In this document: positions 2,186-60,814 of the stretch, piece by piece
Position numbering within the stretch: the stretch's first letter is position 1
Layout of the letters: every line of letters starts with the position of its first letter
Origin: Escherichia coli
GTDB taxonomy: Bacteria > Pseudomonadota > Gammaproteobacteria > Enterobacterales > Enterobacteriaceae
Reading direction: 5' to 3' (one strand)
DNA length: 64,000 bases
NCBI RefSeq assembly: GCF_013122565.1
Contig: NZ_CP053258.1
Position numbers and translations under genes: made by a program
Notes under the pieces: generated by a model
What the model saw: only the letters and a program-made list of their open reading frames with translations
What the model was told of the DNA's origin: nothing
The model's database searches: none

Positions 2186-2820
2186 TGTATCAGCCTGATT
2201 TTCCTCCTGTACCTTTTCGTTTAGGACTGTACCCGGTGGTGGACAGCGTACAGTGGATCGAACGTCTGTTGGATGCAGGCGTACGTACTCTCCAGCTACG
2301 CATCAAAGATCGGCGCGATGAAGAGGTGGAAGCCGATGTCGTGGCGGCAATTGCGCTGGGCCGCCGCTATAACGCGCGATTGTTTATCAACGATTACTGG
2401 CGGCTGGCGATCAAGCATCAGGCGTATGGCGTCCATTTGGGGCAGGAAGATTTGCAAGCCACCGATCTCAATGCCATCCGCGCGGCAGGCCTGCGGCTGG
2501 GCGTTTCGACACATGACGATATGGAAATCGACGTCGCGCTGGCAGCACGCCCCTCTTATATCGCGCTGGGACATGTGTTCCCGACGCAAACCAAACAGAT
2601 GCCTTCTGCACCGCAGGGGCTGGAACAGCTGGCACGGCATGTTGAGCGACTGGCGGATTATCCCACCGTGGCGATTGGCGGTATCAGTCTGGCACGCGCG
2701 CCTGCGGTGATAGCAACGGGTGTCGGCAGTATCGCCGTCGTCAGCGCCATTACTCAAGCCGCAGACTGGCGTTTGGCAACGGCACAGTTGCTGGAAATTG
2801 CAGGAGTTGGCGATGAATGA
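2185..2820 (+). CDS. thiE: thiamine-phosphate synthase ThiE
   Basis: [23 protein letters not shown]...; ATG overlaps thiC stop (GTGATG); alternative GTG start at 2182. Confidence 0.93.
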
Positions 2821-3568
2821 CCGTGATTTTATGCGTTATAGCCGCCAAATCCTGCTCGACGATATCGCTCTTGACGGGCAGCAAAAACTGCTCGACAGCC
2901 AGGTGCTGATTATCGGTCTTGGCGGGCTGGGTACACCTGCTGCGCTGTACCTGGCGGGGGCTGGTGTCGGGACGCTGGTACTGGCAGATGACGACGATGT
3001 GCATTTAAGCAATCTGCAACGACAAATCCTCTTTACCACTGAAGATATCGATCGCCCGAAATCGCAAGTCAGCCAACAGCGACTGACACAGTTGAATCCC
3101 GATATTCAACTGACGGCACTACAACAACGGTTAACGGGTGAGGCGTTAAAAGATGCGGTTGCACAAGCCGATGTGGTGCTCGACTGTACCGACAATATGG
3201 CGACTCGCCAGGAGATTAATGCCGCCTGCGTGGCACTCAACACGCCGCTTATCACCGCCAGCGCGGTCGGATTTGGCGGTCAGTTGATGGTACTGACGCC
3301 ACCCTGGGAGCAGGGGTGTTACCGCTGCCTGTGGCCAGATAACCAGGAGCCAGAACGTAACTGCCGCACGGCGGGCGTGGTTGGCCCGGTGGTCGGGGTT
3401 ATGGGCACTTTACAGGCACTGGAAGCCATTAAGTTATTAAGCGGTATAGAGACGCCTGCGGGAGAATTCCGACTGTTCGACGGTAAGTCGAGCCAGTGGC
3501 GCAGCCTGGCGTTGCGCCGCGCTACAGGTTGCCCGGTATGCGGAGGAAGCAATGCAGATCCTGTTTAA
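2813..3568 (+). CDS. thiF: ThiS adenylyltransferase ThiF
   Basis: [15 protein letters not shown]... E1-like fold with GxGxxG; start chosen at internal ATG overlapping thiE stop (ORF track extends upstream in frame). Confidence 0.92.
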
Positions 3569-22197: not shown

Positions 22198-22225
22198 GGG
22201 GAGCTAATGCTCCCCTTTCTTATTT
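22198..22225 (+). terminator. coaA terminator
   Basis: Hairpin aggggagc-taat-gctcccct followed by T-rich tract. Confidence 0.6.
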
Positions 22226-23185
22226 TTATGCACTACGCAGGGATATTTCACCGCCCATCCAGGGTTTTATTATTCCATCCTGCTCAAGCAATAAAGCGCC
22301 CTGTTTGTCTATTCCGCGTGAAATGCCAAATATTTCTTTATCACCAATGATAAGTTTCACTGGGCGATTAATAAAATTATCCAGCTTTTCCCAGCGCGAA
22401 AGATAAGGTGCCAATCCTTCTTGTTCGAAGAGTTCCAGCGCCGCGCGTAATTCACGTATTAGCATGGCCGCCAACGTATTACGATCGAGATTGATCCCCG
22501 CTTCCTGCAGCGTGATCCACCCCTGATTAACGACACTCTCTTCAACACGACGCATTGCCATGTTGATACCGGCTCCAATGACTATTTGCGCCGCATCGCC
22601 GGTTTTACCAGTCAGCTCCACAAGAATGCCTGCCAGCTTGCGATCCTGCAGATAGAGGTCATTAGGCCATTTAACACGAACTTTATCTGCACCCAGCTTG
22701 CGTAATACTTCCGCCATCACGATACCGATAACCAGACTTAAACCAATCGCCGCCGCCGGGCCTTGTTCCAGACGCCAGAACATCGACAAATATAAGTTTG
22801 CGCCAAAAGGCGAAAACCATTTCCGACCCCGGCGACCACGGCCAGCCTGCTGGTATTCTGCAACGCAGGCATCGCCCGATTTAAGCTCTCCGATACGATC
22901 AAGAAAGTACTGATTCGTGGAGTCAATCACTGGCAGCACGGCTACACTACCGCCATCCAGCTGACCCAATATCTGTTTAGCATTAAGTAACTGGATAGGC
23001 TCAGGCAGGCTGTATCCTTTACCCGGAACGGTAAAGACATCAACGCCCCAGTCACGCAGTGTCTGAATGTGTTTATTAATAGCCGCCCGACTCATTCCTA
23101 ACGTTTCACCCAACTGCTCACCTGAGTGAAATTCGCCATTCGCTAACAGCGCGATTAATTTCAGCGGAACGGTATTATCCTTCAT
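22226..23185 (-). CDS. birA: biotin-[acetyl-CoA-carboxylase] ligase / bio operon repressor BirA
   Basis: 319 aa [50 protein letters not shown]... (HTH plus ligase). Confidence 0.97.
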
Positions 23186-37517: not shown

Positions 37518-37612
37518 TATCCATCCTCCATCGCCACGATAGTTCATGGCGATAGGTAGAATAGCAATGAACGATTATCCCTATCAAGCATTCTGACTGA
37601 TAATTGCTCACA
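37518..37612. promoter_or_regulatory. oxyR-oxyS divergent promoter region with OxyR operator
   Basis: 95-bp interval between the oxyR start codon and the oxyS 5' end; position-based call. Confidence 0.6.
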
Positions 37613-37721
37613 GAAACGGAGCGGCACCTCTTTTAACCCTTGAAGTCACTGCCCGTTTCGAGAGTTTCTCAACTCGAATAACTAAAGCCAACGTGAACTT
37701 TTGCGGATCTCCAGGATCCGC
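37613..37721 (+). ncRNA. oxyS: OxyS small regulatory RNA
   Basis: Sequence GAAACGGAGCGGCACCTCTTTTAACCCTTGAAGTCACTGCCCGTTTCGAGAGTTTCTCAACTCGAATAACTAAAGCCAACGTGAACTTTTGCGGATCTCCAGGATCCGC matches remembered oxyS. Confidence 0.93.
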
Positions 37722-37730
37722 TTTTTTTTT
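37702..37730 (+). terminator. oxyS intrinsic terminator
   Basis: Stem gcggatc-tccag-gatccgc followed by T10. Confidence 0.9.
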
Positions 37731-37770
37731 TATTCTACAGGCCCACAACAAGAGAGCCTGATAGTAACGG

Positions 37771-39054
37771 TTACTCAATGCGATCTTTGACAATAAAGAA
37801 GTAACACAACGCCCCGGTGAACGTCACACAGGCCGCGATAACCAACGCCAGATTAAACGAGTGTGTGGTATCCACTACCCAACCGGTTACGATCGGAGCA
37901 AAGGAAGCAAAAACAAAACTGCCAAAGTTTTGAATCCCGGCGATGGAAGCCACTTTTGTTTCTGACACCATCACCTGCACCAGTCCCCATGCAGACGTTC
38001 CCGCGAAATGCACGCAGAATAGCGCCATTGAGATAAACGCTACCGCCTGAGCTGGCGAGGAAGATTGCACGACCAGCAACGTGCCTAATGCCGACATCAT
38101 CAAACCGCAGACAATAGCCGTTTTACGCGTCTTCGCCAGGTCGTAGCCTTTTTTCGCCAGTCGATCGACAACAATACCGTTTACCCACATCCCGACTGCC
38201 GCCGCGAGGAAAGGAATCGCCGCCACCCAACCGGTTTTCGCCAGACTGAAACCTTGCTCGGCCTGCAAATAACCGGGTAACCACGCGATGTAGAGCCAAC
38301 CGGTATAATTGACGCCAGAGAAACCTAAAATCATCCCCCAGGTTGTCCGATGCTTAAACAGCGCCAGCCACTCGCTAAATTGCAGCTGTGGACGCGGTTT
38401 AACCGGCGCGGAGAGATACGTCCGTTCTTCGTCAGTCAGGACAAACTGCGCCCGGTTGCGATACCACGCGTACCAACAGATCCCAACCAGAATCCCCGCC
38501 ACGCCGATGATGACGAACATCGTCCGCCAGCCCCATGCCAGCTGCATCAATACAAGAGCAGGAGGCGCGATAGCCTGACCGATAACGGTAGATGAGTTAA
38601 AAATCCCCAGCGCCGTGCCGCGTTCTTTTTGTGCATACCAGTCGGTGATCGACTTTACTCCCGCAGGCATAAATGGCGCTTCGCCAATACCCAGACCGAT
38701 ACGCATTAAAATAAAGTGGCTAAAAGAATTAACCATTCCTGTTAATGCCTGCATTAATGACCAGAATATTAAGCCTGCGCCTAAAACTATTCGTGGGCCA
38801 AAGCGGTCTAGCAAAATACCGGAAGGAAGTTGTGAAAAACCATAAGACAGAGAAAATGCAGAAAGCAAAAAACCAAACTCTGTCGCTGATAATCCTAACT
38901 CGCCACGAATCGCTTCGCCTGCCACGCTCAATGACGAACGGTCGAGAAAATTAACGATCCCCGCCATAAATAATAAAACCAGGGTCACTGTCTGAATACG
39001 ACGAATCCGTTGCGGTTTATTACCCGCAACACTGGTTGACACATCAACGTCCAT
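37771..39054 (-). CDS. MFS transporter, anion:cation symporter (ACS) family, putative sugar-acid (hexonate/hexuronate) permease
   Basis: 427 aa ORF, about 12 predicted TM segments, ACS-like N-terminus (LVLLFMAGIVNFLDRSSLSVAG, LDRFGPR); AAGGAG RBS 7 nt upstream of ATG; not present at this locus in K-12. Confidence 0.85.
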   Translation of the reverse strand: MDVDVSTSVAGNKPQRIRRIQTVTLVLLFMAGIVNFLDRSSLSVAGEAIRGELGLSATEFGFLLSAFSLSYGFSQLPSGILLDRFGPRIVLGAGLIFWSLMQALTGMVNSFSHFILMRIGLGIGEAPFMPAGVKSITDWYAQKERGTALGIFNSSTVIGQAIAPPALVLMQLAWGWRTMFVIIGVAGILVGICWYAWYRNRAQFVLTDEERTYLSAPVKPRPQLQFSEWLALFKHRTTWGMILGFSGVNYTGWLYIAWLPGYLQAEQGFSLAKTGWVAAIPFLAAAVGMWVNGIVVDRLAKKGYDLAKTRKTAIVCGLMMSALGTLLVVQSSSPAQAVAFISMALFCVHFAGTSAWGLVQVMVSETKVASIAGIQNFGSFVFASFAPIVTGWVVDTTHSFNLALVIAACVTFTGALCYFFIVKDRIE

Positions 39055-39120
39055 TTTTAGCTCCTTGAGCGGAATTAATCGATTTGATGACTATTCAGAA
39101 AATAATTAAGCGAACCGTTA

Positions 39121-40335
39121 TTACCAGTTCCACAATGTGCCATCTTCCAGTCGTGCGACGGGGAGATACGCCGGGTCATACGGATATTTCGCCGCCAGTT
39201 TCTCATCGAAAGAAATACCCAGCCCCGGTTCATCGCCTGGGTGCATATAACCTTCATCGAAGCGCCAGCTGTGCGGGAAGACTTCAAGCATTTGTTCGGA
39301 ATAGCCCATGTACTCCTGAACGCCAAAGTTTGGCACCCAGAGGTCAAAATGCAGCGCCGCCGCATGACAAACAGGCGATAAATCTGAAGGGCCATGCGAA
39401 CCGGTACGTACCTGATAAAGCGATGCAAAATCGGCAATCCGTCGCATCCCGGTAATGCCGCCTGCATGGGTAATCGTCGTGCGAATATAGTCAATCAGCT
39501 GCTCTTCGATTAACTGCTTGCAGTCCCAGATACTGTTAAACACTTCACCGACCGCAATCGGCGTCACGGTGTGCTGGCGAATCAGACGGAAACATTCCTG
39601 GTTCTCGGCAGGCGTAGGATCTTCCATCCAGAACAGGCGGTAATCCTCAATGCTCTTCCCAAAGCGCGCCGCTTCGATGGGGGTCAGGCGATGGTGCATG
39701 TCATGCAACAGATGTTCGTTAAAACCGAACTTATTACGCACCGCTTCAAATAACTTCGGCGTAAAATCGAGATACTTTTCTGAAGACCACAACTGCTCTT
39801 CTGGCCACAGGCCTTTGGTTGCCGGTTCATACGCCAGTCCTTTGCCCTTCGCCAGGCCATAAGTGGTTTGCATACCCGGTACACCACACTGCACACGAAT
39901 CGCCTTAAAGCCCATGTGCTGGTGCTTTGCATAGTCTTCAAGGACTTCATCAATCGTACGCCCGGTGGTGTGGCAATAAACCATCACGCCTTCACGAGAA
40001 GCACCACCAAGCAGTTGATACAATGGCATATTTGCCGCTTTAGCTTTGATATCCCACAACGCCATATCAATGGCAGAAATGGCTGACATCGTGACGGGGC
40101 CACGTCGCCAGTAAGCACCTTTATAAAAGAATTGCCAGATATCTTCGATACGGCTGGCATCGCGGCCAATTAGTTGTGGACAAAGATGATCTTTCAGATA
40201 AGAAGCGACCGACAATTCGCGACCATTTAACGTGGCATCTCCTAATCCACAAAGTCCGCTTTCAGTGGTTATTTTAAGCGTAACGAAATTACGCCCTGGG
40301 CAAGTAACAAAAACATCCGCAGCAATAATTTTCAT
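39121..40335 (-). CDS. enolase-superfamily dehydratase, ManD/RspA-like (putative D-mannonate or related acid-sugar dehydratase)
   Basis: 405 aa from [25 protein letters not shown]... ending ...[22 protein letters not shown]; closely resembles remembered RspA; AGGAG RBS; ORF track extends 20 codons upstream. Confidence 0.85.
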
Positions 40336-40744
40336 TATTGCAATCTCCTGTGTTGTAAATAGACGTTTCAAACTTAATTTTACGCCTACTACCATACAAG
40401 AGAGAAAAAGCGATTATTCAACCGTGATCACATTAAAAACAAAAATTTCCATCGAGGAGAAAAAATACCCTCAAAAACCACCTGAATAATTAACCATTAT
40501 CGTTAAAACAACACGTTAAATAATCACATAACAAACTCCATTAATCATTAAAAATGGGCACAGCAATAGAAAATAATTATATTCAATTAATTAAAACATG
40601 CATTGGTTGATGTATTGAAAATATGATTTTTATGGGGGGGAGTGAAGGTAAAGAAGACACAATAATAAAAAGGAATATGACAAATAATGGTTCTGGTTGG
40701 ACGTTAAATTTAAGGTCACCAGAATGATGACAAATTTCTGCCTG

Positions 40745-40795
40745 ATGCGGCGTAAACGCCTTATCCGCCTACGAAGTGTCGCACTTTGTAGGCGT
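40745..40795. repeat. REP (repetitive extragenic palindrome) element downstream of argH
   Basis: gcctgatgcggcgtaaacgccttatccgcctac... typical REP consensus. Confidence 0.7.
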
Positions 40796-40800
40796 GGTAA

Positions 40801-40821
40801 ACTCCCCATTTTCAGGGGAGC
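40801..40821 (-). terminator. argH terminator-like hairpin
   Basis: ctcccc-attttca-ggggag inverted repeat immediately after argH stop; weak U-tract. Confidence 0.5.
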
Positions 40822-40833
40822 AATATAAACAAA

Positions 40834-48546: not shown

Positions 48547-50280
48547 ATGCATTCCACAGAAGTCCAGGCTAAACCCCTTTTTAGCTGGAAAGCCCTGGGT
48601 TGGGCACTGCTCTACTTTTGGTTTTTCTCTACTCTGCTACAGGCCATTATTTACATCAGTGGTTATAGTGGCACTAACGGCATTCGCGACTCGCTGTTAT
48701 TCAGTTCGCTGTGGTTGATCCCGGTATTTCTCTTTCCGAAGCGGATTAAAATCATTGCCGCAGTGATCGGCGTGGTGCTATGGGCGGCCTCTCTGGCGGC
48801 GCTGTGCTACTACGTCATCTACGGTCAGGAGTTCTCGCAGAGCGTTCTGTTTGTGATGTTTGAAACCAACACCAACGAAGCCAGCGAGTATTTAAGCCAG
48901 TATTTCAGCCTGAAAATTGTGCTTATCGCGCTGGCCTATACGGCGGTGGCTGTTCTGCTGTGGACACGCCTGCGCCCGGTCTATATTCCAAAGCCGTGGC
49001 GTTATGTTGTCTCTTTTGCCCTGCTTTATGGCTTGATTCTGCATCCGATCGCCATGAATACGTTTATCAAAAACAAGCCGTTTGAGAAAACGTTGGATAA
49101 CCTGGCCTCGCGTATGGAGCCTGCCGCACCGTGGCAATTCCTGACCGGCTATTATCAGTATCGTCAGCAACTAAACTCGCTAACAAAGCTACTGAATGAA
49201 AATAATGCCTTGCCGCCGCTGGCTAATTTCAAAGATGAATCGGGTAACGAACCGCGCACCTTAGTGCTGGTGATTGGCGAGTCAACCCAGCGTGGACGCA
49301 TGAGTCTGTACGGTTATCCGCGTGAAACCACGCCGGAGCTGGATGCGCTGCATAAAACCGATCCGAATCTAACCGTGTTTAATAACGTAGTTACGTCTCG
49401 TCCGTACACCATTGAAATCCTGCAACAGGCGCTGACCTTTGCCAATGAAAAGAACCCGGATCTGTATCTGACGCAGCCGTCGCTGATGAACATGATGAAA
49501 CAGGCGGGTTATAAAACCTTCTGGATCACCAACCAGCAGACGATGACCGCCCGCAATACCATGCTGACGGTATTTTCGCGCCAGACCGACAAGCAGTACT
49601 ACATGAACCAGCAACGTACGCAGAGTGCTCGTGAATACGACACTAACGTGCTGAAGCCGTTCCAGGAAGTGCTGAAGGACCCTGCGCCGAAGAAACTGAT
49701 CATTGTTCATCTGCTGGGTACGCATATCAAATACAAATACCGCTACCCGGAAAATCAGGGCAAGTTTGATGGCAATACCGATCATGTTCCGCCGGGATTA
49801 AACGCGGAAGAGCTGGAGTCATATAACGATTATGACAACGCTAACCTGTATAACGATCATGTGGTTGCCAGCCTGATTAAAGACTTTAAAGCAGCAGACC
49901 CGAACGGTTTCCTGGTTTACTTCTCTGACCACGGTGAAGAGGTTTACGACACGCCGCCTCATAAAACCCAGGGGCGTAATGAGGACAACCCGACGCGTCA
50001 TATGTACACCATTCCGTTCCTGCTGTGGACGTCGGAAAAATGGCAAGCGACTCATCCGCGTGATTTCTCGCAGGATGTTGATCGTAAATACAGCCTGGCG
50101 GAACTGATCCACACCTGGTCAGATTTGGCGGGCTTATCTTACGACGGTTACGATCCAACCCGTTCAGTGGTGAATCCGCAGTTCAAAGAAACTACCCGCT
50201 GGATTGGTAACCCGTATAAGAAAAACGCACTGATCGATTACGACACGCTGCCGTATGGCGATCAGGTGGGTAATCAGTAA
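48547..50280 (+). CDS. eptC: phosphoethanolamine transferase EptC (YijP)
   Basis: 577 aa from MHSTEVQAKPLFSWKALGW; N-terminal TM segments plus sulfatase-like domain. Confidence 0.93.
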   Translation: MHSTEVQAKPLFSWKALGWALLYFWFFSTLLQAIIYISGYSGTNGIRDSLLFSSLWLIPVFLFPKRIKIIAAVIGVVLWAASLAALCYYVIYGQEFSQSVLFVMFETNTNEASEYLSQYFSLKIVLIALAYTAVAVLLWTRLRPVYIPKPWRYVVSFALLYGLILHPIAMNTFIKNKPFEKTLDNLASRMEPAAPWQFLTGYYQYRQQLNSLTKLLNENNALPPLANFKDESGNEPRTLVLVIGESTQRGRMSLYGYPRETTPELDALHKTDPNLTVFNNVVTSRPYTIEILQQALTFANEKNPDLYLTQPSLMNMMKQAGYKTFWITNQQTMTARNTMLTVFSRQTDKQYYMNQQRTQSAREYDTNVLKPFQEVLKDPAPKKLIIVHLLGTHIKYKYRYPENQGKFDGNTDHVPPGLNAEELESYNDYDNANLYNDHVVASLIKDFKAADPNGFLVYFSDHGEEVYDTPPHKTQGRNEDNPTRHMYTIPFLLWTSEKWQATHPRDFSQDVDRKYSLAELIHTWSDLAGLSYDGYDPTRSVVNPQFKETTRWIGNPYKKNALIDYDTLPYGDQVGNQ

Positions 50281-50353
50281 ATGACCTATGTATCGCGTCT
50301 GGCGCTATTTGCCGGATGCGATACTGGCACAATGTTTACATCTCACTTCCATC

Positions 50354-50381
50354 AGGCCACACTTTTCAGGTGGCCTTTTTT
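50354..50381 (+). terminator. eptC terminator
   Basis: aggccac-loop-gtggcct stem followed by T6. Confidence 0.7.
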
Positions 50382-50428
50382 CATAATGCCAGTTACTGTT
50401 TTCCCGTCTACATACCTAAGGGAATAAC

Positions 50429-51280
50429 ATGTATCACGACGTCAGCTATCTGCTCTCCCGCCTGATCAACGGCCCGCTGTCCCTGCGCCAGATTTACTTT
50501 GCAAGCAGTAACGGCCCGGTGCCCGATCTTGCGTATCAGGTCGATTTTCCACGACTGGAAATTGTGCTGGAAGGTGAGTTTGTTGATACCGGCGCTGGAG
50601 CAACGTTAGTTCCCGGCGATGTGCTGTACGTTCCCGCTGGTGGCTGGAATTTTCCACAATGGAAAACACCCGCGACCACCTTTAGCGTGCTGTTTGGCAA
50701 ACAGCAACTCGGCTTCAGCGTCGTGCAATGGGATGGCAAACAATATCAAAATCTGGCGAAGCAACACGTCGCCCGACGCGGCCCACGCATAGGTTCTTTT
50801 CTGCTACAAACGCTCAATGAAATGCAAATGCAGTCGCAGGAGCAGCAAACGGCAAGGCTTATCGTCGCCAGCCTGCTTAGCCACTGCCGCGATTTGCTTG
50901 GCAGCCAAATCCAGACCGCCTCACGCAGCCAGGCACTGTTCGAAGCTATTCGTGATTATATCGACGAACGCTACGCCTCCGCGCTTACCCGCGAATCTGT
51001 CGCACAGGCATTCTATATTTCACCAAACTATCTCTCGCACCTGTTTCAAAAAACGGGGGCCATTGGTTTTAACGAATACCTGAATCACACGCGACTGGAG
51101 CACGCCAAGACGTTATTGAAAGGCTATGACCTGAAGGTAAAAGAAGTGGCGCACGCCTGCGGCTTTGTCGACAGCAACTACTTCTGCCGTCTGTTTCGTA
51201 AAAACACCGAACGCTCGCCGTCGGAATATCGCCGGCAGTACCACAGCCAACTGACAGAAAAACCGACTACTCCAGAATAA
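50429..51280 (+). CDS. yijO: AraC-family transcriptional regulator YijO
   Basis: 283 aa ORF with C-terminal AraC HTH. Confidence 0.9.
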   Translation: MYHDVSYLLSRLINGPLSLRQIYFASSNGPVPDLAYQVDFPRLEIVLEGEFVDTGAGATLVPGDVLYVPAGGWNFPQWKTPATTFSVLFGKQQLGFSVVQWDGKQYQNLAKQHVARRGPRIGSFLLQTLNEMQMQSQEQQTARLIVASLLSHCRDLLGSQIQTASRSQALFEAIRDYIDERYASALTRESVAQAFYISPNYLSHLFQKTGAIGFNEYLNHTRLEHAKTLLKGYDLKVKEVAHACGFVDSNYFCRLFRKNTERSPSEYRRQYHSQLTEKPTTPE

Positions 51281-51608
51281 GATGGGTTTGCTGCGGCGCA
51301 GAAAGCACTTTGCGCACCGCGCTCATTACCCGCTGCGGCTCACGCAGGAATGCGTAGATGCTGCATTGCACATAGCGGCAATGTTCAAATCGCTCGGCAC
51401 CGGCAAGCTCGATATCCGTAATTAACAGCGCAACATCCGCCCGGCGGATATCCTCGTCCGCTAAACGATTCTCCGTTCCCAGCGCGCCCTGAGTTTCAAT
51501 GCTGATGACCCACTTCTCTAACTGGCACAACTTTTCCAGCCGTTCCGCCGCCATATAAGTATGCGCCACGCCGCTTACGCAGGCGGTTACTGCCACCAGG
51601 TATGCCAT
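51267..51608 (-). CDS. frwD: PTS fructose-like IIB component FrwD
   Basis: 113 aa from MAYLVAVTACVSGVAHTYMAAERLEK (IIB Cys motif). Confidence 0.9.
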   Translation of the reverse strand: MAYLVAVTACVSGVAHTYMAAERLEKLCQLEKWVISIETQGALGTENRLADEDIRRADVALLITDIELAGAERFEHCRYVQCSIYAFLREPQRVMSAVRKVLSAPQQTHLILE

Positions 51609-51609
51609 T

Positions 51610-52488
51610 TTAACCTCCCACGGTAACCTGAAATCCGGCCCGTTCTGCCATTTCGCGCATCGTTGCCACATCAGCTGACGACGGCGCAGGCACCTCTTTC
51701 ATCGACCATGTTTTCCCCAGCAGGCGGTATTTCGGTTCGCCGTACTGATGAAACGGTAACAGATGGATCTGCCTGATATTCAGCGGGATCAGCACGTCCA
51801 GCGCCTGCTGCATATTCTCCCGGCTGAGCGTGAAACCAGGGATCAGCGGTAAACGCGGGATCACGTTGACACCCTCACTCACCAGCAAACGCAGATTCTC
51901 CACCACGCGTGGCAGGTTCATCTTCACCACATCCCGCGCCTGAGTCGCATCCATGATTTTTAAATCGAACAACACTTCATCGCACAATTTCGCCAGTGGT
52001 AACAGCTTGCTTGCTGGCGCGTCTCCGGCAGTTTCAATGGCGCATGACACCCCCCACAGCCGCAGTCGCTGTAAAAAACGGGTAGCAAACTCCGCCTGCA
52101 TTAACACTTCGCCGCCAGAAAGCGTGACGCCGCCGCCGGACGTGCGAAAGAAAATGTCATCTTTCATCACTTCCCGTTCCAGCGCGTCAAGGCTGATATC
52201 GCGACCAATCCGTTCAAACGCCCCGGAGGGGCATTCATCCGCATCACGCAAACATTTCGCACAGTGCAGACATTTCGCCTCTCTGCGTACCGTCTGGATT
52301 TTGCCGGAGATCGACTCCGGATTAGCACACCACGGGCAAAGATGCGGACAGCCTTTAAAAAAGACCACCGTACGAATGCCCTCACCGTCATTCAGTGAAT
52401 AACGCTGAATGTTGAAAATGCGCGCCACATCATTGCGGCGCGTTTCCACAACGTTACAGCTGATGCGCTGTCCGGCGGATGATGTCAT
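51610..52488 (-). CDS. pflC: glycyl-radical enzyme activating protein PflC
   Basis: 292 aa from MTSSAGQRIS... with radical-SAM CPHLCPWC and ferredoxin-like Cys clusters. Confidence 0.93.
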   Translation of the reverse strand: MTSSAGQRISCNVVETRRNDVARIFNIQRYSLNDGEGIRTVVFFKGCPHLCPWCANPESISGKIQTVRREAKCLHCAKCLRDADECPSGAFERIGRDISLDALEREVMKDDIFFRTSGGGVTLSGGEVLMQAEFATRFLQRLRLWGVSCAIETAGDAPASKLLPLAKLCDEVLFDLKIMDATQARDVVKMNLPRVVENLRLLVSEGVNVIPRLPLIPGFTLSRENMQQALDVLIPLNIRQIHLLPFHQYGEPKYRLLGKTWSMKEVPAPSSADVATMREMAERAGFQVTVGG

Positions 52489-54751
52489 CCTGGATCTCCT
52501 TCGACAGTTCGACAAAGAAGGCGCTGTATCCGGCAACGCGCACCACCAGCCCGGCATAATCTTGTGGGCGCTGTTGCGCTTCCCGCAACGTGTCGGCGTT
52601 CACCACGTTAAACTGAATATGTTGTAACTTAAGCTGGGTAAACGCCCGTAAGAAGTCGGCCAGTTTGCGTAATCCCGCTTCACCTTCCAGGGTCGCCGGA
52701 GTGAATTTCACGTTCAGCAACGTACCGTTAGACAGCAGTGTGTTATCGAGCTTACTGACTGACTTCAGTACCGCCGTTGGCCCTTGTGCGTCCTGGCCCA
52801 GCATGGGTGACAAGCCGCCGTCTGCCAGTTGTTCCCCGGCAAAACGACCGTCTGGCGTCGCACCAACCACCGATCCCAACGGGACGTGAGCAGAAACGGT
52901 ATACGATCCCGGCGTGAAGTAGCCGCCGCGCGGGTTCTGGTATTTTTCCACTTCTTTGCAGTAGTGGCGTAACAGTTCGGCGCTGATGTTATCCACCTCG
53001 TCGATATCGTTACCGTATTTCTCAAAGCGGTTAATTAAGCGAGCGCGGACTTTTTCGCCTTCTGGCGTTGCGAAGTTGGCTTTTAATACCGACAGCAATT
53101 CGTCAAAACTTAAACGCTGTTGATCAAAAACCATCCCTTTCAACGCATGGAGAGAATCGCTCAGGTTGGCGATACCGATCCCCTGTACGCCGGAGAAGTT
53201 ATAACGCGCGCCGCCATCGGTAATATCGCGGCCTTTTTCCAGACAATCGCTGATAAACGATGAGAGCAGCGGTACAGGTGCCCAGTCGCGATGGCCGATA
53301 TCACAAATATTGCTGCCCTCAACCATCAGGGTGATGTAGTGGCTGATCTTGGCGCGGATCTGCTCCAGTAAACCTTCATAAGTCAGCGCAGCATTGCCTT
53401 CATTTTCATGCAGGCAGATTTCCATCACTTTCAGCAGATTAAACATCGCGATGTCATGCAAGCCGTAGGTTCTGCCGGGAATAGATAATTCCACACAGCC
53501 CACTACGGAATAGTCGCGCGCATCTTCCAGCGAAACGCCACGGTTGAGGAACGCTGGCACCACCACTTCATCGTTAAAGATTTGCGGAATACCGGTGCCG
53601 AGGCGAATGGTTTCGGCGGTTTTCATCAGGAACGGCGTGTCGATCAAGGCGTTAGTGCGCACGCCGAGGTTCGGTTGCGGTAATTGCACGCTTTGATAAG
53701 CATCGAGGCAAAGGAATGAAAGCACGTTCACCGCGCTACGTCCGTTCTCGGTTAACCCGCCGAGCAGTGCGGTATAGCCGGTCGGGAAACCTGCGAAATA
53801 ACGCGCGCTGCTGGTGGAGCGCAACAGCACGATGTCGTTGCATTTCACCCATAAAGATTCGAGCAGTTCTTTCAGGAACGCCGGATCTTCGCCCTGGGTT
53901 AAAGATGCCTGATAGAACGGCAACATATACTGGTCGAAGCGCCCTAAAGACAGCGAACTGGCGTTGGATTCGTATTGCAGAATGATGTTCATGTACCAGA
54001 ATAACTGGCACGCCTGCCAGAACGTCTGCGGCTTATGTTGCGCGTTATGGCGGGAGATCTCCGCAATAGTCAGCAGCTCTTAGCGACGCTGGGCATCTGT
54101 GCAGTTTGCCGCCATCGTTTCCGCCAGTTCGGCGTAACGCAAAATGTGTTTCTGCGAGGCTTCCAGCAGTAACAGCGCTGCCTGATAAAAGTAATTCTCC
54201 GGCTGTTGCTGACAATGTTGCTGCATCTGCGCCACCAGCTCCCCCAGCCCGTGATTCAGCAGGCGCGGGTAATCAATAATAATGTGCCCCTGGCCTTTAT
54301 CCGTCTGGTTGATGCTGAAAATCTGCGTGCTGGTCGCGGCTTTTACTTCATCCGTCATCTGCCCGTTGATGAAATCTTTCATCGAACGTTTTTCCCAGTA
54401 CGGGAACAACTCTTCGCGGTAGATACGTTTATCTTCTTCGCTGATAGCAAAGCGGTCCTGCGGACGCGTCGGGAACTGGTCCAACTCTTTCAGCAGCCAG
54501 TAAGGATCCATTTCCGGCGACATAATCCCGGCGCGTGGTTTCACCGTGCGGTTACCGGCAATCAGTTCTTCATCACGAATCGAAATTTCAACATGTTCAA
54601 GGATATACGCTGTTGCTTTCGCCCGGCGCAATATCACCGGTTCGCCTTCGGTTTGCCGATGGCTGGCGGTATAAAGCAGCGCACGCTCCAGCGAGATTTC
54701 ACGGGTATTGGCAAACAGTGCAGTTTTGAGGCGAGAGATACGATTCGTCAT
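52454..54751 (-). pseudogene. pflD: pflD (glycyl-radical formate-acetyltransferase 2), interrupted by an in-frame TAA at codon 224
   Basis: Two collinear same-frame ORFs (54080-54751 and 52454-53992) separated only by a TAA at 54080-54082; full frame otherwise intact at 765 codons. Confidence 0.8.
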
Positions 54752-54801
54752 GAGGAACTCCTGTGGGAAAGCGAACCCGCCCTTGCGAGCGGGAGAAGAA
54801 C

Positions 54802-55122
54802 TTAAGCGGTTTGCGCCAGGTGAGCTTCAATTTTGCTCATAATGGCGTCAGCGCGTTTTACCGCGTCGCTGATGTTGACGCGCACAATGGTCTTGCCAGC
54901 AAAACGCTCTTCAAACTTGATGCCGATATCTTTGGTCAGAATCACCATATCGGCGCTCGCCACATCTTCCGCAGTCAGTTCGTTTTCCAGACCAATCGAG
55001 CCCTGGGTTTCTACTTTCACTTCCCAGCCTTTCGCTTTCGCGGCACTTTCCAGCGCCTCTGCCGCCATATAAGTATGGGCAACACCAGATGGACATGCGG
55101 TTACTGCAATAATTTTCGTCAT
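54802..55122 (-). CDS. frwB: PTS fructose-like IIB component FrwB
   Basis: 106 aa ORF MTKIIAVTACPSGVAHTYMAAEALE... Confidence 0.93.
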   Translation of the reverse strand: MTKIIAVTACPSGVAHTYMAAEALESAAKAKGWEVKVETQGSIGLENELTAEDVASADMVILTKDIGIKFEERFAGKTIVRVNISDAVKRADAIMSKIEAHLAQTA

Positions 55123-55136
55123 GGCTCGTTCCTCAA

Positions 55137-56216
55137 TTAATTAATTTCAAAATCCAAATCCAGGTCGTCTTCTTTTTCATCAGTAGAAGATCCATTTTTA
55201 CGCGCCAGACTTTTCAGCACGTTCACGCAGACTGCCGTCACAACCGCCCCGACAGCCACTGCTGCGATATAACCCAACTTACCTTCAACCACCGGCAGCA
55301 CAATCAGACCACCCCAGCCGGCATAGCACTGCGCACCGACCAGCGCCGCAGTTACTGCACCACAAACTGAACCGACCATGATGGAAGGAATAACACGCAG
55401 CGGATCGGCAGCGGCGAAAGGAATCGCCCCTTCAGTAACGCCAACGCACCCCATCACCAGCGCCGCTTTACCAGTTTCGCGCTCTTCTGCGGAGAAATTT
55501 TTACGACCAATCAGCGTCGCCAGCCCCATCCCCAGCGGCGGGATACAAATACCCACGGCAGCAATGGCCACCACGGTATAAACACCCTGAGCAACGCAAA
55601 TCAGCATGAAGGCATAGGCCACTTTGTTAACCGGACCGCCCATATCGAACGCCAGCATCAGACCCATGATCACCGCCAGCATAACAATGCTGCCCTGCTG
55701 CATCCCCTGAAGCCACTGAGTCAGGCTGTTGGTCAACGCCCCTACAGGCTCGCCCAAGCCCCACATCATGATGCCTGCGGTAATCAGTGTGCCGACGATA
55801 GGAATGATGAAGATAGGCATCACCGAGCGCAGAACTTTATGCACCGGAATTTTCTTCAGGTAATGCACCACGATGCCGCCGATAATCCCGGCGATCAGTG
55901 CACCAAAGAAGCCCGCACCAAAGCTGTTACCAACCCAGGCACCGATAGCGCACGGAGCCAGCGCAGAACGCTCTGCAATGGAGTAACCAATGTAAGCGGC
56001 GAGGAAAGGCACCATCAGCGTCAAACCCGCAACGCCGATATCAAACAGTTTTTTCAAATTCGGATCGGCTACGGCATTCGGCACTGCGCCTTTGCCATAC
56101 AACATGACGGAAACCGCCAGCAAAATACCGCCCGATACCACGAAGGGAATCATGTGTGAAACGCCCGTCATTAAGTGCTGACGGGTATTTTTCAGGATCT
56201 GCACCAACTCATTCAT
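55137..56216 (-). CDS. frwC: PTS fructose-like IIC component FrwC
   Basis: 359 aa polytopic membrane ORF from MNELVQILKNTRQHLMTGVSHMIPFVV; upstream in-frame ATG at 56237. Confidence 0.9.
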   Translation of the reverse strand: MNELVQILKNTRQHLMTGVSHMIPFVVSGGILLAVSVMLYGKGAVPNAVADPNLKKLFDIGVAGLTLMVPFLAAYIGYSIAERSALAPCAIGAWVGNSFGAGFFGALIAGIIGGIVVHYLKKIPVHKVLRSVMPIFIIPIVGTLITAGIMMWGLGEPVGALTNSLTQWLQGMQQGSIVMLAVIMGLMLAFDMGGPVNKVAYAFMLICVAQGVYTVVAIAAVGICIPPLGMGLATLIGRKNFSAEERETGKAALVMGCVGVTEGAIPFAAADPLRVIPSIMVGSVCGAVTAALVGAQCYAGWGGLIVLPVVEGKLGYIAAVAVGAVVTAVCVNVLKSLARKNGSSTDEKEDDLDLDFEIN

Positions 56217-56524
56217 AAGCTGCTCCCGGGCTTGCAAAAGCCCATGTCCATATTTTTGATGGAGGAAACAATAGGCAATCGCAGGCGGAGCAAACAGTGG
56301 ATAAAAAGGCCATTTACTGGACTTTTGTAATATCAGTACAAAAATGCGATCCGCCTCATAACTTGCGATAAACCTGAAGCATGCCGCAAAACGGCGTCTT
56401 GTGAGACGCGTCGCAAATTGACGGTTACATTACATTTGTCCAGCTTTTGGCAGATTTGTCACATGGCAGGCCGTTGCCGTGCGCTCTTATCCTGTAAACA
56501 GAAAACCGTACCGGGAGAGAGGCA

Positions 56525-59026
56525 ATGGCCCTGATTGTGGAATTTATTTGTGAGCTACCTAACGGCGTACATGCGCGTCCGGCAAGCCACGTTGAAACGC
56601 TGTGTAATACTTTTTCATCTCAAATTGAGTGGCATAACCTGCGTACTGACCGTAAAGGCAACGCCAAAAGCGCCCTGGCGCTGATTGGCACCGATACACT
56701 GGTGGGCGATAACTGCCAGTTACTAATTTCCGGGGCCGACGAACAGGAAGCGCACCAGCGTTTAAGCCAATGGCTGCGCGATGAATTTCCCCACTGCGAC
56801 GCACCGCTGGCGGAAGTAAAATCTGACGAACTGGAACCACTGCCGGTTTCACTGACCAATCTGAATCCGCAAATTATCCGCGCCCGCACCGTGTGCAGCG
56901 GTAGCGCTGGCGGCATTCTGACGCCGATCTCTTCTTTAGATCTCAATGCGCTGGGTAATCTTCCTGCTGCCAAAGGCGTTGACGCCGAGCAATCCGCGCT
57001 GGAAAACGGTCTGACACTGGTGATGAAAAACATTGAGTTTCGTCTGCTCGATAGCGACGGTGCCACCAGCGCGATTCTGGAGGCTCACCGATCCCTGGCT
57101 GGCGATACTTCCCTGCGCGAACATTTACTGGCAGGCGTCAGCGCCGGATTAAGCTGCGCCGAAGCGATTGTCGCCAGCGCGAATCACTTTTGCGAAGAGT
57201 TTTCCCGTTCCAGCAGCAGCTACCTGCAAGAACGTGCCCTGGACGTACGCGACGTCTGCTTCCAGTTACTCCAGCAAATCTACGGTGAGCAACGCTTCCC
57301 GGCACCGGGCAAACTGACGCAGCCCGCCATTTGTATGGCTGATGAACTGACCCCCAGCCAGTTCCTCGAACTGGATAAAAATCACCTCAAAGGTCTGTTG
57401 CTGAAAAGTGGCGGCACCACATCGCATACGGTGATTCTTGCCCGTTCGTTCAACATTCCAACGCTGGTTGGTGTGGATATTGATGCCCTTACTCCGTGGC
57501 AGCATCAGACGATTTATATCGACGGCAACGCTGGGGCGATTGTGGTTGAGCCAGGGGAAGCCGTAGCCCGTTATTATCAGCAAGAAGCCCGCGTACAGGA
57601 CGCCCTGCGTGAGCAACAGCGTGTCTGGCTGACCCAACAAGCCCGTACCGCTGACGGTATCCGCATTGAAATTGCCGCTAACATCGCTCACTCCGTGGAA
57701 GCGCAGGCCGCATTCGGCAATGGTGCGGAAGGCGTTGGTTTGTTCCGCACTGAAATGCTCTATATGGATCGCACCAGTGCACCGGGCGAAAGCGAGCTGT
57801 ACAACATTTTTTGTCAGGCGCTGGAGTCTGCCAACGGACGCAGCATTATTGTGCGCACTATGGACATTGGCGGCGACAAACCCGTTGATTATCTAAACAT
57901 TCCCGCAGAGGCAAACCCGTTCCTCGGTTATCGCGCCGTGCGTATTTATGAAGAATACGCCTCGCTGTTCACCACACAACTACGGTCGATCCTGCGCGCC
58001 TCCGCTCACGGCAGCCTGAAAATCATGATCCCGATGATCTCTTCAATGGAAGAGATCTTATGGGTGAAAGAAAAACTGGCGGAAGCCAAACAGCAACTGC
58101 GTAACGAACACATTCCGTTTGATGAGAAGATCCAGCTCGGCATTATGCTGGAAGTGCCGTCGGTGATGTTCATCATCGATCAATGCTGCGAAGAGATTGA
58201 TTTCTTTAGTATTGGTAGTAATGACCTGACGCAATATCTGCTGGCGGTGGATCGCGATAACGCTAAGGTTACTCGTCACTATAACAGCCTGAATCCGGCA
58301 TTCCTGCGGGCGCTCGATTACGCCGTGCAGGCGGTGCATCGCCAGGGCAAATGGATTGGTCTGTGCGGTGAACTGGGAGCGAAAGGTTCCGTGCTGCCAT
58401 TGCTGGTCGGTTTAGGGCTGGATGAGCTGAGCATGAGCGCACCATCAATTCCGGCGGCGAAAGCGCGGATGGCGCAACTTGATAGCCGTGAGTGCCGCCA
58501 GTTGCTCAACCAGGCAATGGCCTGCCGTACTTCGCTGGAAGTGGAACACCTGCTGGCGCAATTCCGCATGACCCAACAGGACGCACCACTGGTCACCGCC
58601 GAGTGCATCACGCTGGAAAGCGACTGGCGCAGCAAAGAAGAAGTGCTCAAAGGCATGACCGATAACCTGCTGCTGGCAGGGCGCTGCCGCTATCCGCGTA
58701 AACTGGAAGCCGACTTGTGGGCGCGCGAGGCCGTTTTCTCTACCGGTCTGGGCTTTAGTTTTGCCATTCCACACAGCAAATCAGAACACATTGAGCAATC
58801 CACCATCAGTGTAACGCGTCTGCAAGCGCCGGTGCGCTGGGGCGATGATGAAGCACAATTCATCATTATATTAACCCTGAACAAACACGCTGCGGGCGAT
58901 CAGCATATGCGCATTTTCTCGCGCCTCGCTCGCCGCATCATGCACGAAGAATTCCGTAACGCGCTGGTTAACGCCGCCTCTGCCGACGCTATCGCCAGCC
59001 TGCTGCAACATGAACTGGAACTGTAA
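56525..59026 (+). CDS. ptsA: multiphosphoryl transfer protein PtsA (EI-HPr-IIA fusion)
   Basis: 833 aa ORF with HPr-like N-terminus, EI PEP-utilising domain (SHTVILARS) and IIA C-terminus. Confidence 0.95.
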
Positions 59027-59037
59027 AAGGAAACATC

Positions 59038-59700
59038 ATGGAACTGTATCTGGACACCGCTAACGTCGCAGAAGTCGAACGTCTGGCACGCATATTCCCG
59101 ATTGCCGGGGTGACAACTAACCCGAGCATTATCGCTGCCAGCAAGGAGTCCATCTGGGAAGTGCTGCCGCGTCTGCAAAAAGCTATTGGTGATGAGGGCA
59201 TTCTGTTTGCTCAGACCATGAGCCGCGACGCGCAGGGGATGGTGGAAGAAGCGAAGCGCCTGCGCGACGCCATTCCGGGCATTGTGGTGAAAATCCCGGT
59301 GACTTCCGAAGGTCTGGCAGCAATTAAAATACTGAAAAAAGAGGGTATTACTACACTTGGCACCGCTGTATATAGCGCCGCACAAGGGTTATTAGCCGCA
59401 CTGGCAGGGGCAAAATACGTTGCTCCGTATGTTAACCGCGTAGATGCCCAGGGCGGAGACGGCATTCGTACGGTTCAGGAGCTGCAAGCGTTGTTAGAAA
59501 TGCATGCGCCAGAAAGCATGGTGCTGGCAGCCAGCTTTAAAACGCCGCGTCAGGCACTGGACTGTTTACTGGCAGGATGTGAATCCATCACCCTGCCCTT
59601 AGATGTAGCGCAACAAATGCTCAACACCCCTGCGGTAGAGTCAGCTATAGAGAAGTTCGAACACGACTGGAATGCCGCATTTGGCACTACTCATCTCTAA
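59038..59700 (+). CDS. fsaB: fructose-6-phosphate aldolase 2
   Basis: 220 aa [34 protein letters not shown]... Confidence 0.96.
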
Positions 59701-59710
59701 AGGAGCAATT

Positions 59711-60814
59711 ATGGACCGCATTATTCAATCACCGGGTAAATACATCCAGGGCGCTGATGTGATTAATCGTCTGGGCGAATACCTGAAGCCGCTGGCAGAA
59801 CGCTGGTTAGTGGTGGGTGACAAATTTGTTTTAGGTTTTGCTCAATCCACTGTCGAGAAAAGCTTTAAAGATGCTGGACTGGTAGTAGAAATTGCGCCGT
59901 TTGGCGGTGAATGTTCGCAAAATGAGATCGACCGTCTGCGTGGCATCGCGGAGACTGCGCAGTGTGGCGCAATTCTCGGTATCGGTGGCGGAAAAACCCT
60001 CGATACTGCCAAAGCACTGGCACATTTCATGGGTGTTCCGGTAGCGATCGCACCGACTATCGCCTCTACCGATGCACCGTGCAGCGCATTGTCTGTTATC
60101 TACACCGATGATGGTGAGTTTGACCGCTATCTACTGTTGCCAAATAACCCGAATATGGTCATTGTCGACACCAAAATCGTCGCTGGCGCTCCTGCACGTC
60201 TGTTAGCGGCGGGTATCGGCGATGCGCTGGCAACCTGGTTTGAAGCACGCGCCTGTTCCCGTAGCGGCGCTACCACTATGGCGGGCGGCAAGTGCACCCA
60301 GGCGGCGCTGGCACTGGCAGAACTGTGCTACAACACTCTGCTGGAAGAAGGCGAAAAAGCGATGCTTGCCGCCGAACAGCATGTAGTAACCCCTGCGCTG
60401 GAACGCGTGATTGAAGCGAACACCTATTTAAGCGGTGTTGGTTTTGAAAGCGGCGGACTGGCGGCGGCTCACGCGGTGCATAACGGCCTGACCGCTATCC
60501 CGGACGCGCATCACTATTATCACGGTGAAAAAGTGGCATTCGGTACGCTGACGCAGCTGGTACTGGAAAACGCGCCGGTTGAGGAAATCGAAACCGTAGC
60601 TGCACTTAGCCATGCGGTAGGTTTGCCAATAACTCTCGCTCAACTGGATATTAAAGAAGATGTCCCGGCGAAAATGCGAATTGTGGCAGAAGCGGCATGT
60701 GCAGAAGGTGAAACCATCCACAACATGCCTGGCGGCGCGACGCCAGATCAGGTTTACGCCGCTCTGCTGGTAGCCGACCAGTACGGTCAGCGTTTCCTGC
60801 AAGAGTGGGAATAA
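59711..60814 (+). CDS. gldA: glycerol dehydrogenase
   Basis: 367 aa from [24 protein letters not shown]; AGGAG RBS. Confidence 0.96.

What the first reader, a model, noticed from the sequence alone, without database searches (positions are those of the whole stretch)
52454..54751. pflD (glycyl-radical enzyme) carries an in-frame TAA nonsense codon at codon 224
The ORF track shows two same-frame ORFs, 54080-54751 and 52454-53992. Reading across the gap on the minus strand gives ...CTDAQRR-TAA-ELLTIAEISRHNAQHKPQTFWQACQLFWYMNIILQYE..., so the entire 765-codon frame is intact except for one stop codon. From memory the K-12 residue here is Glu (GAA), which would make this a single G-to-T change. 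Either this strain has recently inactivated pflD, which sits in the cryptic frw/pfl cluster, or it is a sequencing error. The downstream portion, including the glycyl-radical domain, could only be made from an internal start.
Basis: partly seen in the sequence, partly recalled or inferred. Interest (0 to 1): 0.5.

Follow-up and report, generated by a model that had tools for sequence, protein, structure and literature searches.

The report
Strain-private nonsense mutation in pflD
One G-to-T change turns codon 224 of the E. coli glycyl-radical enzyme gene pflD into a stop; it looks real, recent and confined to this one strain, so it is an ordinary young pseudogene.

Summary
pflD (window 54751..52454, minus strand) is a full 765-codon frame broken only by TAA at 54082..54080. 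K-12 has GAA (Glu224) there, so the change is a single G>T.

None of 5,426 complete E. coli genomes carries the T, whereas 3,720 match the same 55-mer with G. GTDB species representatives and JGI metagenome contigs gave no hit. The only other carrier is a Logan contig built from run SRR11451224. It is 100% identical to the window over 8.3 kb, so it is the same strain or clone. This argues against an assembly or polishing error.

The rest of pflD still looks like a gene under selection: dN/dS is about 0.05 on both sides of the stop, with no other stop or frameshift. All neighbouring pathway genes are intact. The inactivation is therefore recent.

The catalytic Cys419 and the radical Gly741 lie downstream of the stop. 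Met254 has no Shine-Dalgarno sequence, and conserved codons 224-253 fall in neither ORF. A null allele is the expected result.

PflD is now assigned as a 1,5-anhydromannitol-6-phosphate lyase, so the predicted phenotype can be tested. Interest is low.

The parts
52454..54751 (-). pflD, complete 765-codon frame plus natural stop, interrupted once (pseudogene by nonsense mutation)
   Evidence: Translation. Gapless 98.1% alignment to K-12 b3951. The NCBIfam equivalog NF007437 is matched by the two pieces at profile positions 1-223 and 254-765.
54080..54082 (-). Premature stop TAA at codon 224 (GAA>TAA, E224*). The mutated base is window 54082.
   Evidence: Sequence. K-12, SI-NP020 and NT1F34 have GAA. 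The T is found in 0 of 5,426 complete genomes and the G in 3,720.
54083..54751 (-). N-terminal fragment, codons 1-223. This is the only part with a native ribosome-binding site.
   Evidence: ORF list. Anti-SD duplex energy at the native start is -6.9 kcal/mol. Only the PFL-like Pfam domain is recorded on this fragment.
53993..54079 (-). Codons 225-253 (ELLTIAEISRHNAQHKPQTFWQACQLFWY), which fall in neither ORF. The segment is conserved across glycyl-radical enzymes.
   Evidence: PDB alignments to a PflD homologue, CutC, a diol dehydratase and A. fulgidus PFL2 show conserved R-R-E-L-L-x-I-A and P-x-(T/S)-F-x-(E/Q)-A-x-Q motifs.
52454..53992 (-). C-terminal ORF from Met254 (512 aa plus stop). It contains the catalytic Cys419 (codon at 53497..53495) and the radical Gly741 (codon at 52531..52529). 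No Shine-Dalgarno sequence precedes it.
   Evidence: Motif positions GCVE 418 and RVAGY 738, and an anti-SD duplex of -0.9 kcal/mol before Met254. PFL-like and Gly_radical Pfam hits.
51610..52488 (-). pflC, the activating radical-SAM enzyme. It is intact, overlaps the pflD 3' end by 35 nt and has its own strong SD sequence (AAGGAG).
   Evidence: Gapless, stop-free alignment to K-12. Duplex energy -8.8 kcal/mol.
51267..51608 (-). frwD (PTS EIIB), intact, downstream in the same operon
54802..56216 (-). frwC (56216..55137) and frwB (55122..54802), PTS EIIC and EIIB, intact, upstream in the same operon
56525..60814 (+). ptsA, fsaB and gldA, the divergently transcribed pathway genes, all intact
   Evidence: Their role in the pathway rests on my recollection of Ma et al. 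2024; the review read here does not name these enzymes.

Best explanation
This is a genuine, recent loss-of-function allele of pflD that is private to this strain. A single G:C>T:A transversion changed Glu224 (GAA) to an ochre stop (TAA). Translation from the native start ends after 223 residues. That product lacks most of the barrel, the catalytic Cys419 and the radical Gly741. Met254, the next in-frame start, has no Shine-Dalgarno sequence. A product starting there would also lack conserved residues 224-253. The strain therefore most likely makes no active PflD. By inference it has lost PflD-dependent anaerobic use of 1,5-anhydromannitol, while the rest of the frw/pfl/fsaB/gldA cluster remains intact. 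Shown here: the mutation, its uniqueness, its presence in a second read-based assembly, and the lack of any further decay. Inferred: the null phenotype, possible Rho-dependent polarity on pflC and frwD, and neutral drift or relaxed selection as the cause.
For: One internal TAA in an otherwise gapless 765-codon frame. K-12 has GAA at codon 224. A 55-mer centred on the T matches 0 of 5,426 complete E. coli genomes, a second-haplotype T query also matches 0, and the G control matches 3,720 genomes. There are no hits in GTDB species representatives or JGI metagenome contigs. Logan contig SRR11451224_82 encodes the same 223-aa and 512-aa ORFs and is 100% identical to the window over 49454-57751. 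dN/dS is about 0.05 against K-12 and against the closest intact allele (NT1F34), on both sides of the stop, the same as between two intact alleles. Of the 43 K-12 coding sequences compared across the window, all are gapless, and 41 have no internal stop. The exceptions are pflD and the penultimate codon of birA. So the assembly is not error-ridden and the genome is not decaying. Cys419 and Gly741 lie downstream, and Met254 has no SD sequence. Residues 224-253 are conserved in solved glycyl-radical enzymes. Other E. coli lineages carry independent lesions a few codons away: Q221* in GCA_014331115.1, a 1-bp deletion in SRR15372984 and a 26-bp deletion in ERZ1478581. pflD null alleles therefore recur and are tolerated.
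Against: I could not see raw reads or coverage. If the window's genome was assembled from SRR11451224, the two assemblies share the same reads. They then exclude assembler or polishing error, but not a mutation that arose in the sequenced culture. No close relative of this lineage was found: the nearest complete genome is 98.8% identical in pflD and 97.9% over 24 kb. The age of the mutation therefore rests only on the lack of decay. The loss of activity is inferred, not measured.
Confidence: 0.85

Rival explanations
1. Sequencing, assembly or polishing error: the true base is G and pflD is intact.
For: The change is a single base seen in one lineage only. I could not inspect reads.
Against: A separate read-based assembly (Logan, SRR11451224) has the same T inside an unbroken 15.5-kb contig that is 100% identical to the window over 8.3 kb. 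The window shows no indels in any of the 43 coding sequences compared with K-12, so it is not a noisy assembly. The site is neither a homopolymer nor a Dam/Dcm motif. The claim that consensus substitution errors are rare in such contexts is my own knowledge.
Confidence: 0.06
2. The stop is read through or suppressed, for example by an ochre-suppressor tRNA or programmed recoding, so full-length PflD is still made.
For: A second private GAA>TAA change is present in the essential gene birA. That could hint at tolerance of TAA codons.
Against: The birA stop is at codon 320 of 321 and removes only two residues, so it needs no suppression. All five tRNA genes in the window have wild-type anticodons, including tRNA-Glu(UUC) and tyrU(GUA), the genes that could give Glu- or Tyr-inserting ochre suppressors. 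The stop is not conserved in any relative, which a programmed recoding site would require. TAA followed by G is an efficient terminator in E. coli (my own knowledge).
Confidence: 0.02
3. A split enzyme: the 223-aa N-terminal fragment and a 512-aa fragment re-initiated at Met254 assemble into an active glycyl-radical enzyme.
For: Both ORFs are intact, and the second contains the Cys and Gly catalytic motifs.
Against: There is no Shine-Dalgarno sequence before Met254 (-0.9 kcal/mol, against -6.9 and -8.8 for real starts nearby). The 29 codons between the stop and Met254 would be missing, together with residue 224 itself, and this segment is conserved across the family. No relative has this arrangement. 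The other carriers of the same 512-aa ORF have unrelated lesions, which is the pattern of random damage and not of a designed split.
Confidence: 0.02
4. The loss is adaptive rather than neutral: inactivating pflD was selected in this strain's niche.
For: Independent lesions (Q221*, a 1-bp deletion, a 26-bp deletion) occur in other lineages within about 25 codons of this one.
Against: That clustering is an ascertainment effect. I searched for the exact 512-aa ORF, which appears only when the lesion lies shortly upstream of Met254. pflD is retained at 80% coverage or more in 5,396 of 5,426 complete genomes and evolves under strong purifying selection, with dN/dS about 0.05. I found no literature reporting pflD pseudogenes in E. 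coli.
Confidence: 0.05

Closest known systems
E. coli K-12 PflD (b3951, NP_418386.1; PDB 8yjo 'Probable dehydratase PflD')
   Same: It is the same gene in the same place, frwC-frwB-pflD-pflC-frwD, with ptsA-fsaB-gldA transcribed divergently. The alignment is gapless at 98.1% nucleotide identity. The catalytic motifs GCVE (Cys419) and RVAGY (Gly741) are encoded.
   Different: Codon 224 is TAA instead of GAA. There are six further amino-acid differences (N141S, H187Y, T282A, A290P, F384L, E543D).
Other naturally occurring pflD null alleles: Q221* in GCA_014331115.1, a 1-bp deletion at nt 698 in Logan SRR15372984, and a 26-bp deletion of nt 629-654 in ENA ERZ1478581
   Same: All are point or small lesions just upstream of Met254 in otherwise intact pflD genes. 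All leave the identical 512-aa downstream ORF.
   Different: They are different mutations on different pflD alleles. All three have GAA at codon 224, and their loci are 97.8-98.1% identical to the window. They are independent events.
YbiW, the paralogous E. coli glycyl-radical enzyme (PDB 8id7, 8yjn)
   Same: It belongs to the same PFL2/glycerol-dehydratase-type family and performs the analogous ring-opening reaction on 1,5-anhydroglucitol-6-phosphate.
   Different: It is a different locus, outside the window, with a different substrate epimer. Its state in this strain is unknown, so I cannot say whether it compensates.

Membership tests
PflD orthologue (NCBIfam NF007437 equivalog; PFL2/glycerol-dehydratase glycyl-radical enzyme subfamily TIGR01774) | Sequence matches the equivalog model end to end | tested here: met
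   The 223-aa piece aligns to profile positions 1-223 and the 512-aa piece to 254-765 of 765. The C-terminal piece alone scores 1166 bits, above the 1109 cut-off.
PflD orthologue (NCBIfam NF007437 equivalog; PFL2/glycerol-dehydratase glycyl-radical enzyme subfamily TIGR01774) | Conserved genomic context (frwCB-pflDC-frwD next to ptsA-fsaB-gldA) | tested here: met
   The gene order is collinear with K-12 and all neighbours are intact.
PflD orthologue (NCBIfam NF007437 equivalog; PFL2/glycerol-dehydratase glycyl-radical enzyme subfamily TIGR01774) | Catalytic Cys loop (GCVE) and glycyl-radical motif (RVxG) encoded | tested here: met
   GCVE is at residue 418 and RVAGY at residue 738 of the conceptual translation. 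A Gly_radical Pfam hit is recorded on the 512-aa ORF.
PflD orthologue (NCBIfam NF007437 equivalog; PFL2/glycerol-dehydratase glycyl-radical enzyme subfamily TIGR01774) | Uninterrupted reading frame able to give the full-length enzyme | tested here: not met
   TAA at codon 224. This is a member by descent, but a pseudogene.
PflD orthologue (NCBIfam NF007437 equivalog; PFL2/glycerol-dehydratase glycyl-radical enzyme subfamily TIGR01774) | 1,5-anhydromannitol-6-phosphate lyase activity | not testable with these tools
   The activity is reported for K-12 PflD by Ma et al. 2024, cited through PMC12441222. It was not measured for this allele.
Pseudogene by nonsense mutation | In-frame stop where orthologues have a sense codon | tested here: met
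   GAA is present in K-12, SI-NP020, NT1F34, L002, L005, L006, L008, L010 and L016. The G-version 55-mer matches 3,720 genomes and the T-version matches none.
Pseudogene by nonsense mutation | The stop is real and not an assembly artefact | tested here: inconclusive
   The same T is present in the independently built Logan contig of SRR11451224. Reads could not be inspected, and the two assemblies may share the same reads.
Pseudogene by nonsense mutation | No rescue by an internal start or by suppression | tested here: inconclusive
   There is no SD sequence before Met254, and the five tRNA genes in the window are wild type. The tRNA genes elsewhere in the genome were not seen.
Programmed stop-codon recoding or readthrough | Stop codon conserved at the same site in related sequences | tested here: not met
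   No other genome, GTDB representative or metagenome contig has the TAA.

The most novel reading that the evidence does not exclude
The two private GAA>TAA changes in this window (pflD E224* and birA E320*) might not be coincidence. The strain could carry a Glu-inserting ochre suppressor elsewhere in its genome, so that PflD would still be made at a reduced level. Alternatively, pflD loss could be positively selected in this rare, deep-branching E. coli lineage.
Probability: 0.03. Interest if true: 0.45.

Novelty: new member of a known kind. Interest (0 to 1): 0.1.

Why it matters
It matters little beyond annotation. pflD in this genome should be marked as a pseudogene (E224*), not as two genes.

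There is one small practical point. PflD now has an assigned function, 1,5-anhydromannitol-6-phosphate cleavage in the 'anhydroglycolysis' route. This strain is therefore a natural pflD null with every other pathway gene intact. It could serve as a ready-made control for testing that pathway's contribution to anaerobic growth.

It also illustrates that pflD is strongly conserved across E. coli (5,396 of 5,426 complete genomes carry it at 80% coverage or more) yet is occasionally lost by independent small lesions.

Tried and rejected
1. My first 55-mer placed the T at position 27, so a 28-base word could avoid it and hits with a mismatch were returned. I redid it with the T at position 28, added a G control and added a second haplotype.

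2. I looked for close relatives through exact-protein look-ups. The exact FrwC occurs only in the same Logan run. The exact PflC also occurs in GCA_052983875.1, but that locus is only 98.7% identical and is not a close relative; its pflD is intact. The nine loci sharing the exact 512-aa ORF are different alleles, either with other lesions or with N-gaps in metagenome scaffolds.

3. Scans for the TAA 35-42-mer in GTDB species representatives and in JGI metagenome contigs found nothing. The source genome is therefore not in those sets.

4. Mutator hypothesis (mutY/mutM-type G:C>T:A excess). The 45 private substitutions in 7.5 kb are mostly transitions, and only 8 are G:C>T:A. I rejected it.

5. 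Suppressor tRNA in the window. All five anticodons are wild type.

6. Literature. A search for pflD pseudogenes in E. coli and a search for the run accession found nothing relevant. The primary paper, JACS 2024 146:26187, is not held, so I cite it through the review PMC12441222.

7. I could not establish the organism or lineage beyond 'E. coli-like, at least 1.2% from every complete genome in pflD'. It is not a Shigella-style decayed genome, because there are no gaps or disruptions in any of the 43 coding sequences compared.

Full report
**Observation.** The ORF list shows two minus-strand ORFs in the same frame: 54080-54751 (223 aa) and 52454-53992 (512 aa, starting MNIILQYE). Translating 54751..52454 in one frame gives 765 codons plus the natural stop, with exactly one internal stop...CTDAQRR*ELLTIAEISRHNAQHKPQTFWQACQLFWYMNIILQYE.... 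The stop is TAA at window 54082..54080, in the context CGT CGC TAA GAG CTG.

**What the gene is.** The region is collinear with E. coli K-12 MG1655 4.136-4.160 Mb. The order is katG, yijE, yijF, gldA, fsaB, ptsA, then frwC-frwB-pflD-pflC-frwD, then yijO, eptC, ppc and argECBH. The window's pflD aligns to b3951 without gaps over 2298 nt at 98.1% identity. K-12 codon 224 is GAA, so the lesion is a single G>T transversion, E224*. The NCBIfam equivalog for this protein (NF007437, 765 positions) is matched at positions 1-223 by the first ORF and at 254-765 by the second. The two ORFs are therefore two pieces of one PflD and not two genes.

**Is it real?** The exact 223-aa product is on record in only one other place, contig 82 (15.5 kb) of the Logan assembly of run SRR11451224. 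The parts of that contig that I fetched are 100% identical to the window over 49454-57751, including the T. This is either the same strain's reads assembled by another pipeline or a clonal relative. In either case an assembler or polishing artefact is unlikely.

The window is also a clean assembly. I compared 43 K-12 coding sequences across it. All align without a single gap, and only two carry an internal stop: pflD, and birA at its penultimate codon. I could not inspect reads. A mutation that arose in the sequenced culture cannot be excluded.

**Is it shared?** It is not.
- A 55-mer with the T at its exact centre, so that every 28-base megablast seed must contain the T, matches none of the 5,426 complete E. 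coli genomes.
- The same 55-mer with G matches 3,720 genomes, 992 of them perfectly.
- A T-version built on the other common local haplotype also matches none.
- The TAA-containing 35-42-mer is absent from the GTDB species-representative genomes and from the JGI metagenome contigs.

The lineage itself is poorly sampled. The nearest complete genome is 98.8% identical in pflD and 97.9% over 24 kb. Against ten references there are 45 private substitutions in 7.5 kb. The exact FrwC protein occurs only in the same Logan run. The one other genome with an identical PflC protein (GCA_052983875.1) is only 98.7% identical at the DNA level and has an intact 765-aa pflD with GAA.

**Age.** Apart from the stop, the gene looks selected.
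- Against K-12 there are 36 synonymous and 6 other non-synonymous codon differences, with dN/dS of 0.034 upstream of the stop and 0.059 downstream.
- The intact SI-NP020 allele compared with K-12 gives 0.053.
- Against the closest intact allele found (NT1F34) there are 22 synonymous and 5 other non-synonymous differences, with dN/dS of about 0.05 on both sides.
- There are no frameshifts and no second stop.
- Only one substitution private to this lineage lies downstream of the stop, and it is synonymous.

The inactivation is therefore young compared with the divergence of this lineage. The private-substitution spectrum is ordinary: 26 transitions and 8 G:C>T:A among 45. No mutator needs to be invoked.

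**Consequence (inferred).** The catalytic cysteine (GCVE, Cys419) and the radical glycine (RVAGY, Gly741) are both downstream of the stop. The first in-frame start after the stop is Met254. The 17 nt upstream of it pair with the anti-Shine-Dalgarno sequence at only -0.9 kcal/mol. The corresponding values are -6.9 for the native pflD start and -8.8 for pflC.

Residues 224-253 would be absent from both products. Alignments to solved glycyl-radical enzymes show that this segment is conserved. The enzymes compared are a PflD homologue (8id0), choline TMA-lyase, a diol dehydratase and A. fulgidus PFL2. The conserved motifs are R-R-E-L-L-x-I-A ... P-x-(T/S)-F-x-(E/Q)-A-x-Q, and Glu224 itself is among the conserved residues. 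A null allele is by far the most likely outcome.

pflC keeps its own strong ribosome-binding site inside the 3' end of pflD. The roughly 2 kb (2,008 nt) of pflD message left untranslated downstream of the stop could still cause Rho-dependent polarity on pflC and frwD. That is an inference from general E. coli biology and was not tested.

**Rescue mechanisms considered.**
- The five tRNA genes in the window have wild-type anticodons. They include tRNA-Glu(UUC) in the rrn operon and tyrU, the genes that could mutate to Glu- or Tyr-inserting ochre suppressors.
- Programmed recoding would require the stop to be conserved, and it is not.
- A split enzyme is unlikely because of the missing start signal and the missing conserved segment.

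**Comparison with what is known.** That is no longer accurate. [quoted passage not shown] According to it, YbiW and PflD of E. coli cleave 1,5-anhydroglucitol-6-phosphate and 1,5-anhydromannitol-6-phosphate respectively to 1-deoxyfructose-6-phosphate. The substrates enter by PTS uptake and phosphorylation, and the pathway supports anaerobic growth. The PDB holds the E. coli PflD structure (8yjo) and YbiW structures (8id7, 8yjn). I could not read the primary paper.

All other genes of the cluster in this window are intact: ptsA, frwC, frwB, pflC, frwD, fsaB and gldA. The predicted phenotype is thus specific and testable.

**How ordinary is it?** pflD is present at 80% coverage or more in 5,396 of 5,426 complete genomes. 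Null alleles do recur, however. The search for the identical 512-aa downstream ORF turned up three unrelated lesions in other alleles:
- CAG>TAG at codon 221 (GCA_014331115.1)
- a 1-bp deletion at nt 698 (Logan SRR15372984)
- a 26-bp deletion of nt 629-654 (ENA ERZ1478581)

Their clustering near codon 224 is an ascertainment effect of that search and not a hotspot. A single strain-private nonsense codon in a conditionally dispensable catabolic gene is the normal background of bacterial genomes (my own knowledge). I found no literature on pflD pseudogenes.

**Verdict.** The finding is a previously unrecorded null allele of a known gene. It is real but ordinary, and it is of interest mainly for correct annotation and as a natural pflD knockout.

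Noticed in passing
window 22226-22228 (birA, minus strand 23185..22220): birA carries the same kind of change, GAA>TAA, at codon 320 of 321, so BirA is two residues shorter than in K-12 (it loses E320 and K321). The T-centred 55-mer matches no complete E. coli genome, although its 27-nt upstream flank is identical to K-12. The same 319-aa product is encoded in Logan SRR11451224 contig 301. It looks benign, but it is a second private ochre codon in the window.
   Followed up: yes
whole window; measured on 40000-64000 and 49454-56992: The source lineage is unusually distant from sequenced E. coli. The best identity to any of 5,426 complete genomes is 97.9% over 24 kb and 98.8% for pflD. There are 45 substitutions in 7.5 kb that none of ten reference alleles share. 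Ribosomal-protein and rpoBC genes are 99.4-100% identical to K-12. I did not determine the lineage (a cryptic clade or a rare phylogroup).
   Followed up: partly
window 56620-56968 (5' part of ptsA, plus strand): Eleven lineage-private substitutions lie within about 350 bp, all at third codon positions. This looks like a divergent tract, possibly recombined, that is still under purifying selection.
   Followed up: partly
window 50327-50382 (eptC-yijO intergenic region): There is a cluster of seven private substitutions in 55 bp of the intergenic spacer. The spacer is 148 bp here and in strain SI-NP020, against 214 bp in K-12.
   Followed up: no
window 37518-40833 (between oxyR and argH): A 3.3-kb segment is absent from K-12 at this position. 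It is the manD (D-mannonate dehydratase) and MFS-transporter island, present at this site in about 1,860 complete E. coli genomes. It is an ordinary accessory island.
   Followed up: yes
L002, L005, L006 (pflD region, locus coordinates about 2240-3000): Independent pflD-inactivating lesions occur in other E. coli alleles: a 1-bp deletion at nt 698 (Logan SRR15372984), a 26-bp deletion of nt 629-654 (ENA ERZ1478581) and Q221* (GCA_014331115.1). All have GAA at codon 224.
   Followed up: yes
window 51610-52557 (pflC ORF): The mechanical ORF for pflC extends to 52557 (315 aa), but the K-12-equivalent start is at 52488 (292 aa), preceded by AAGGAG. The longer ORF is probably only an upstream in-frame ATG inside pflD.
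   Followed up: partly
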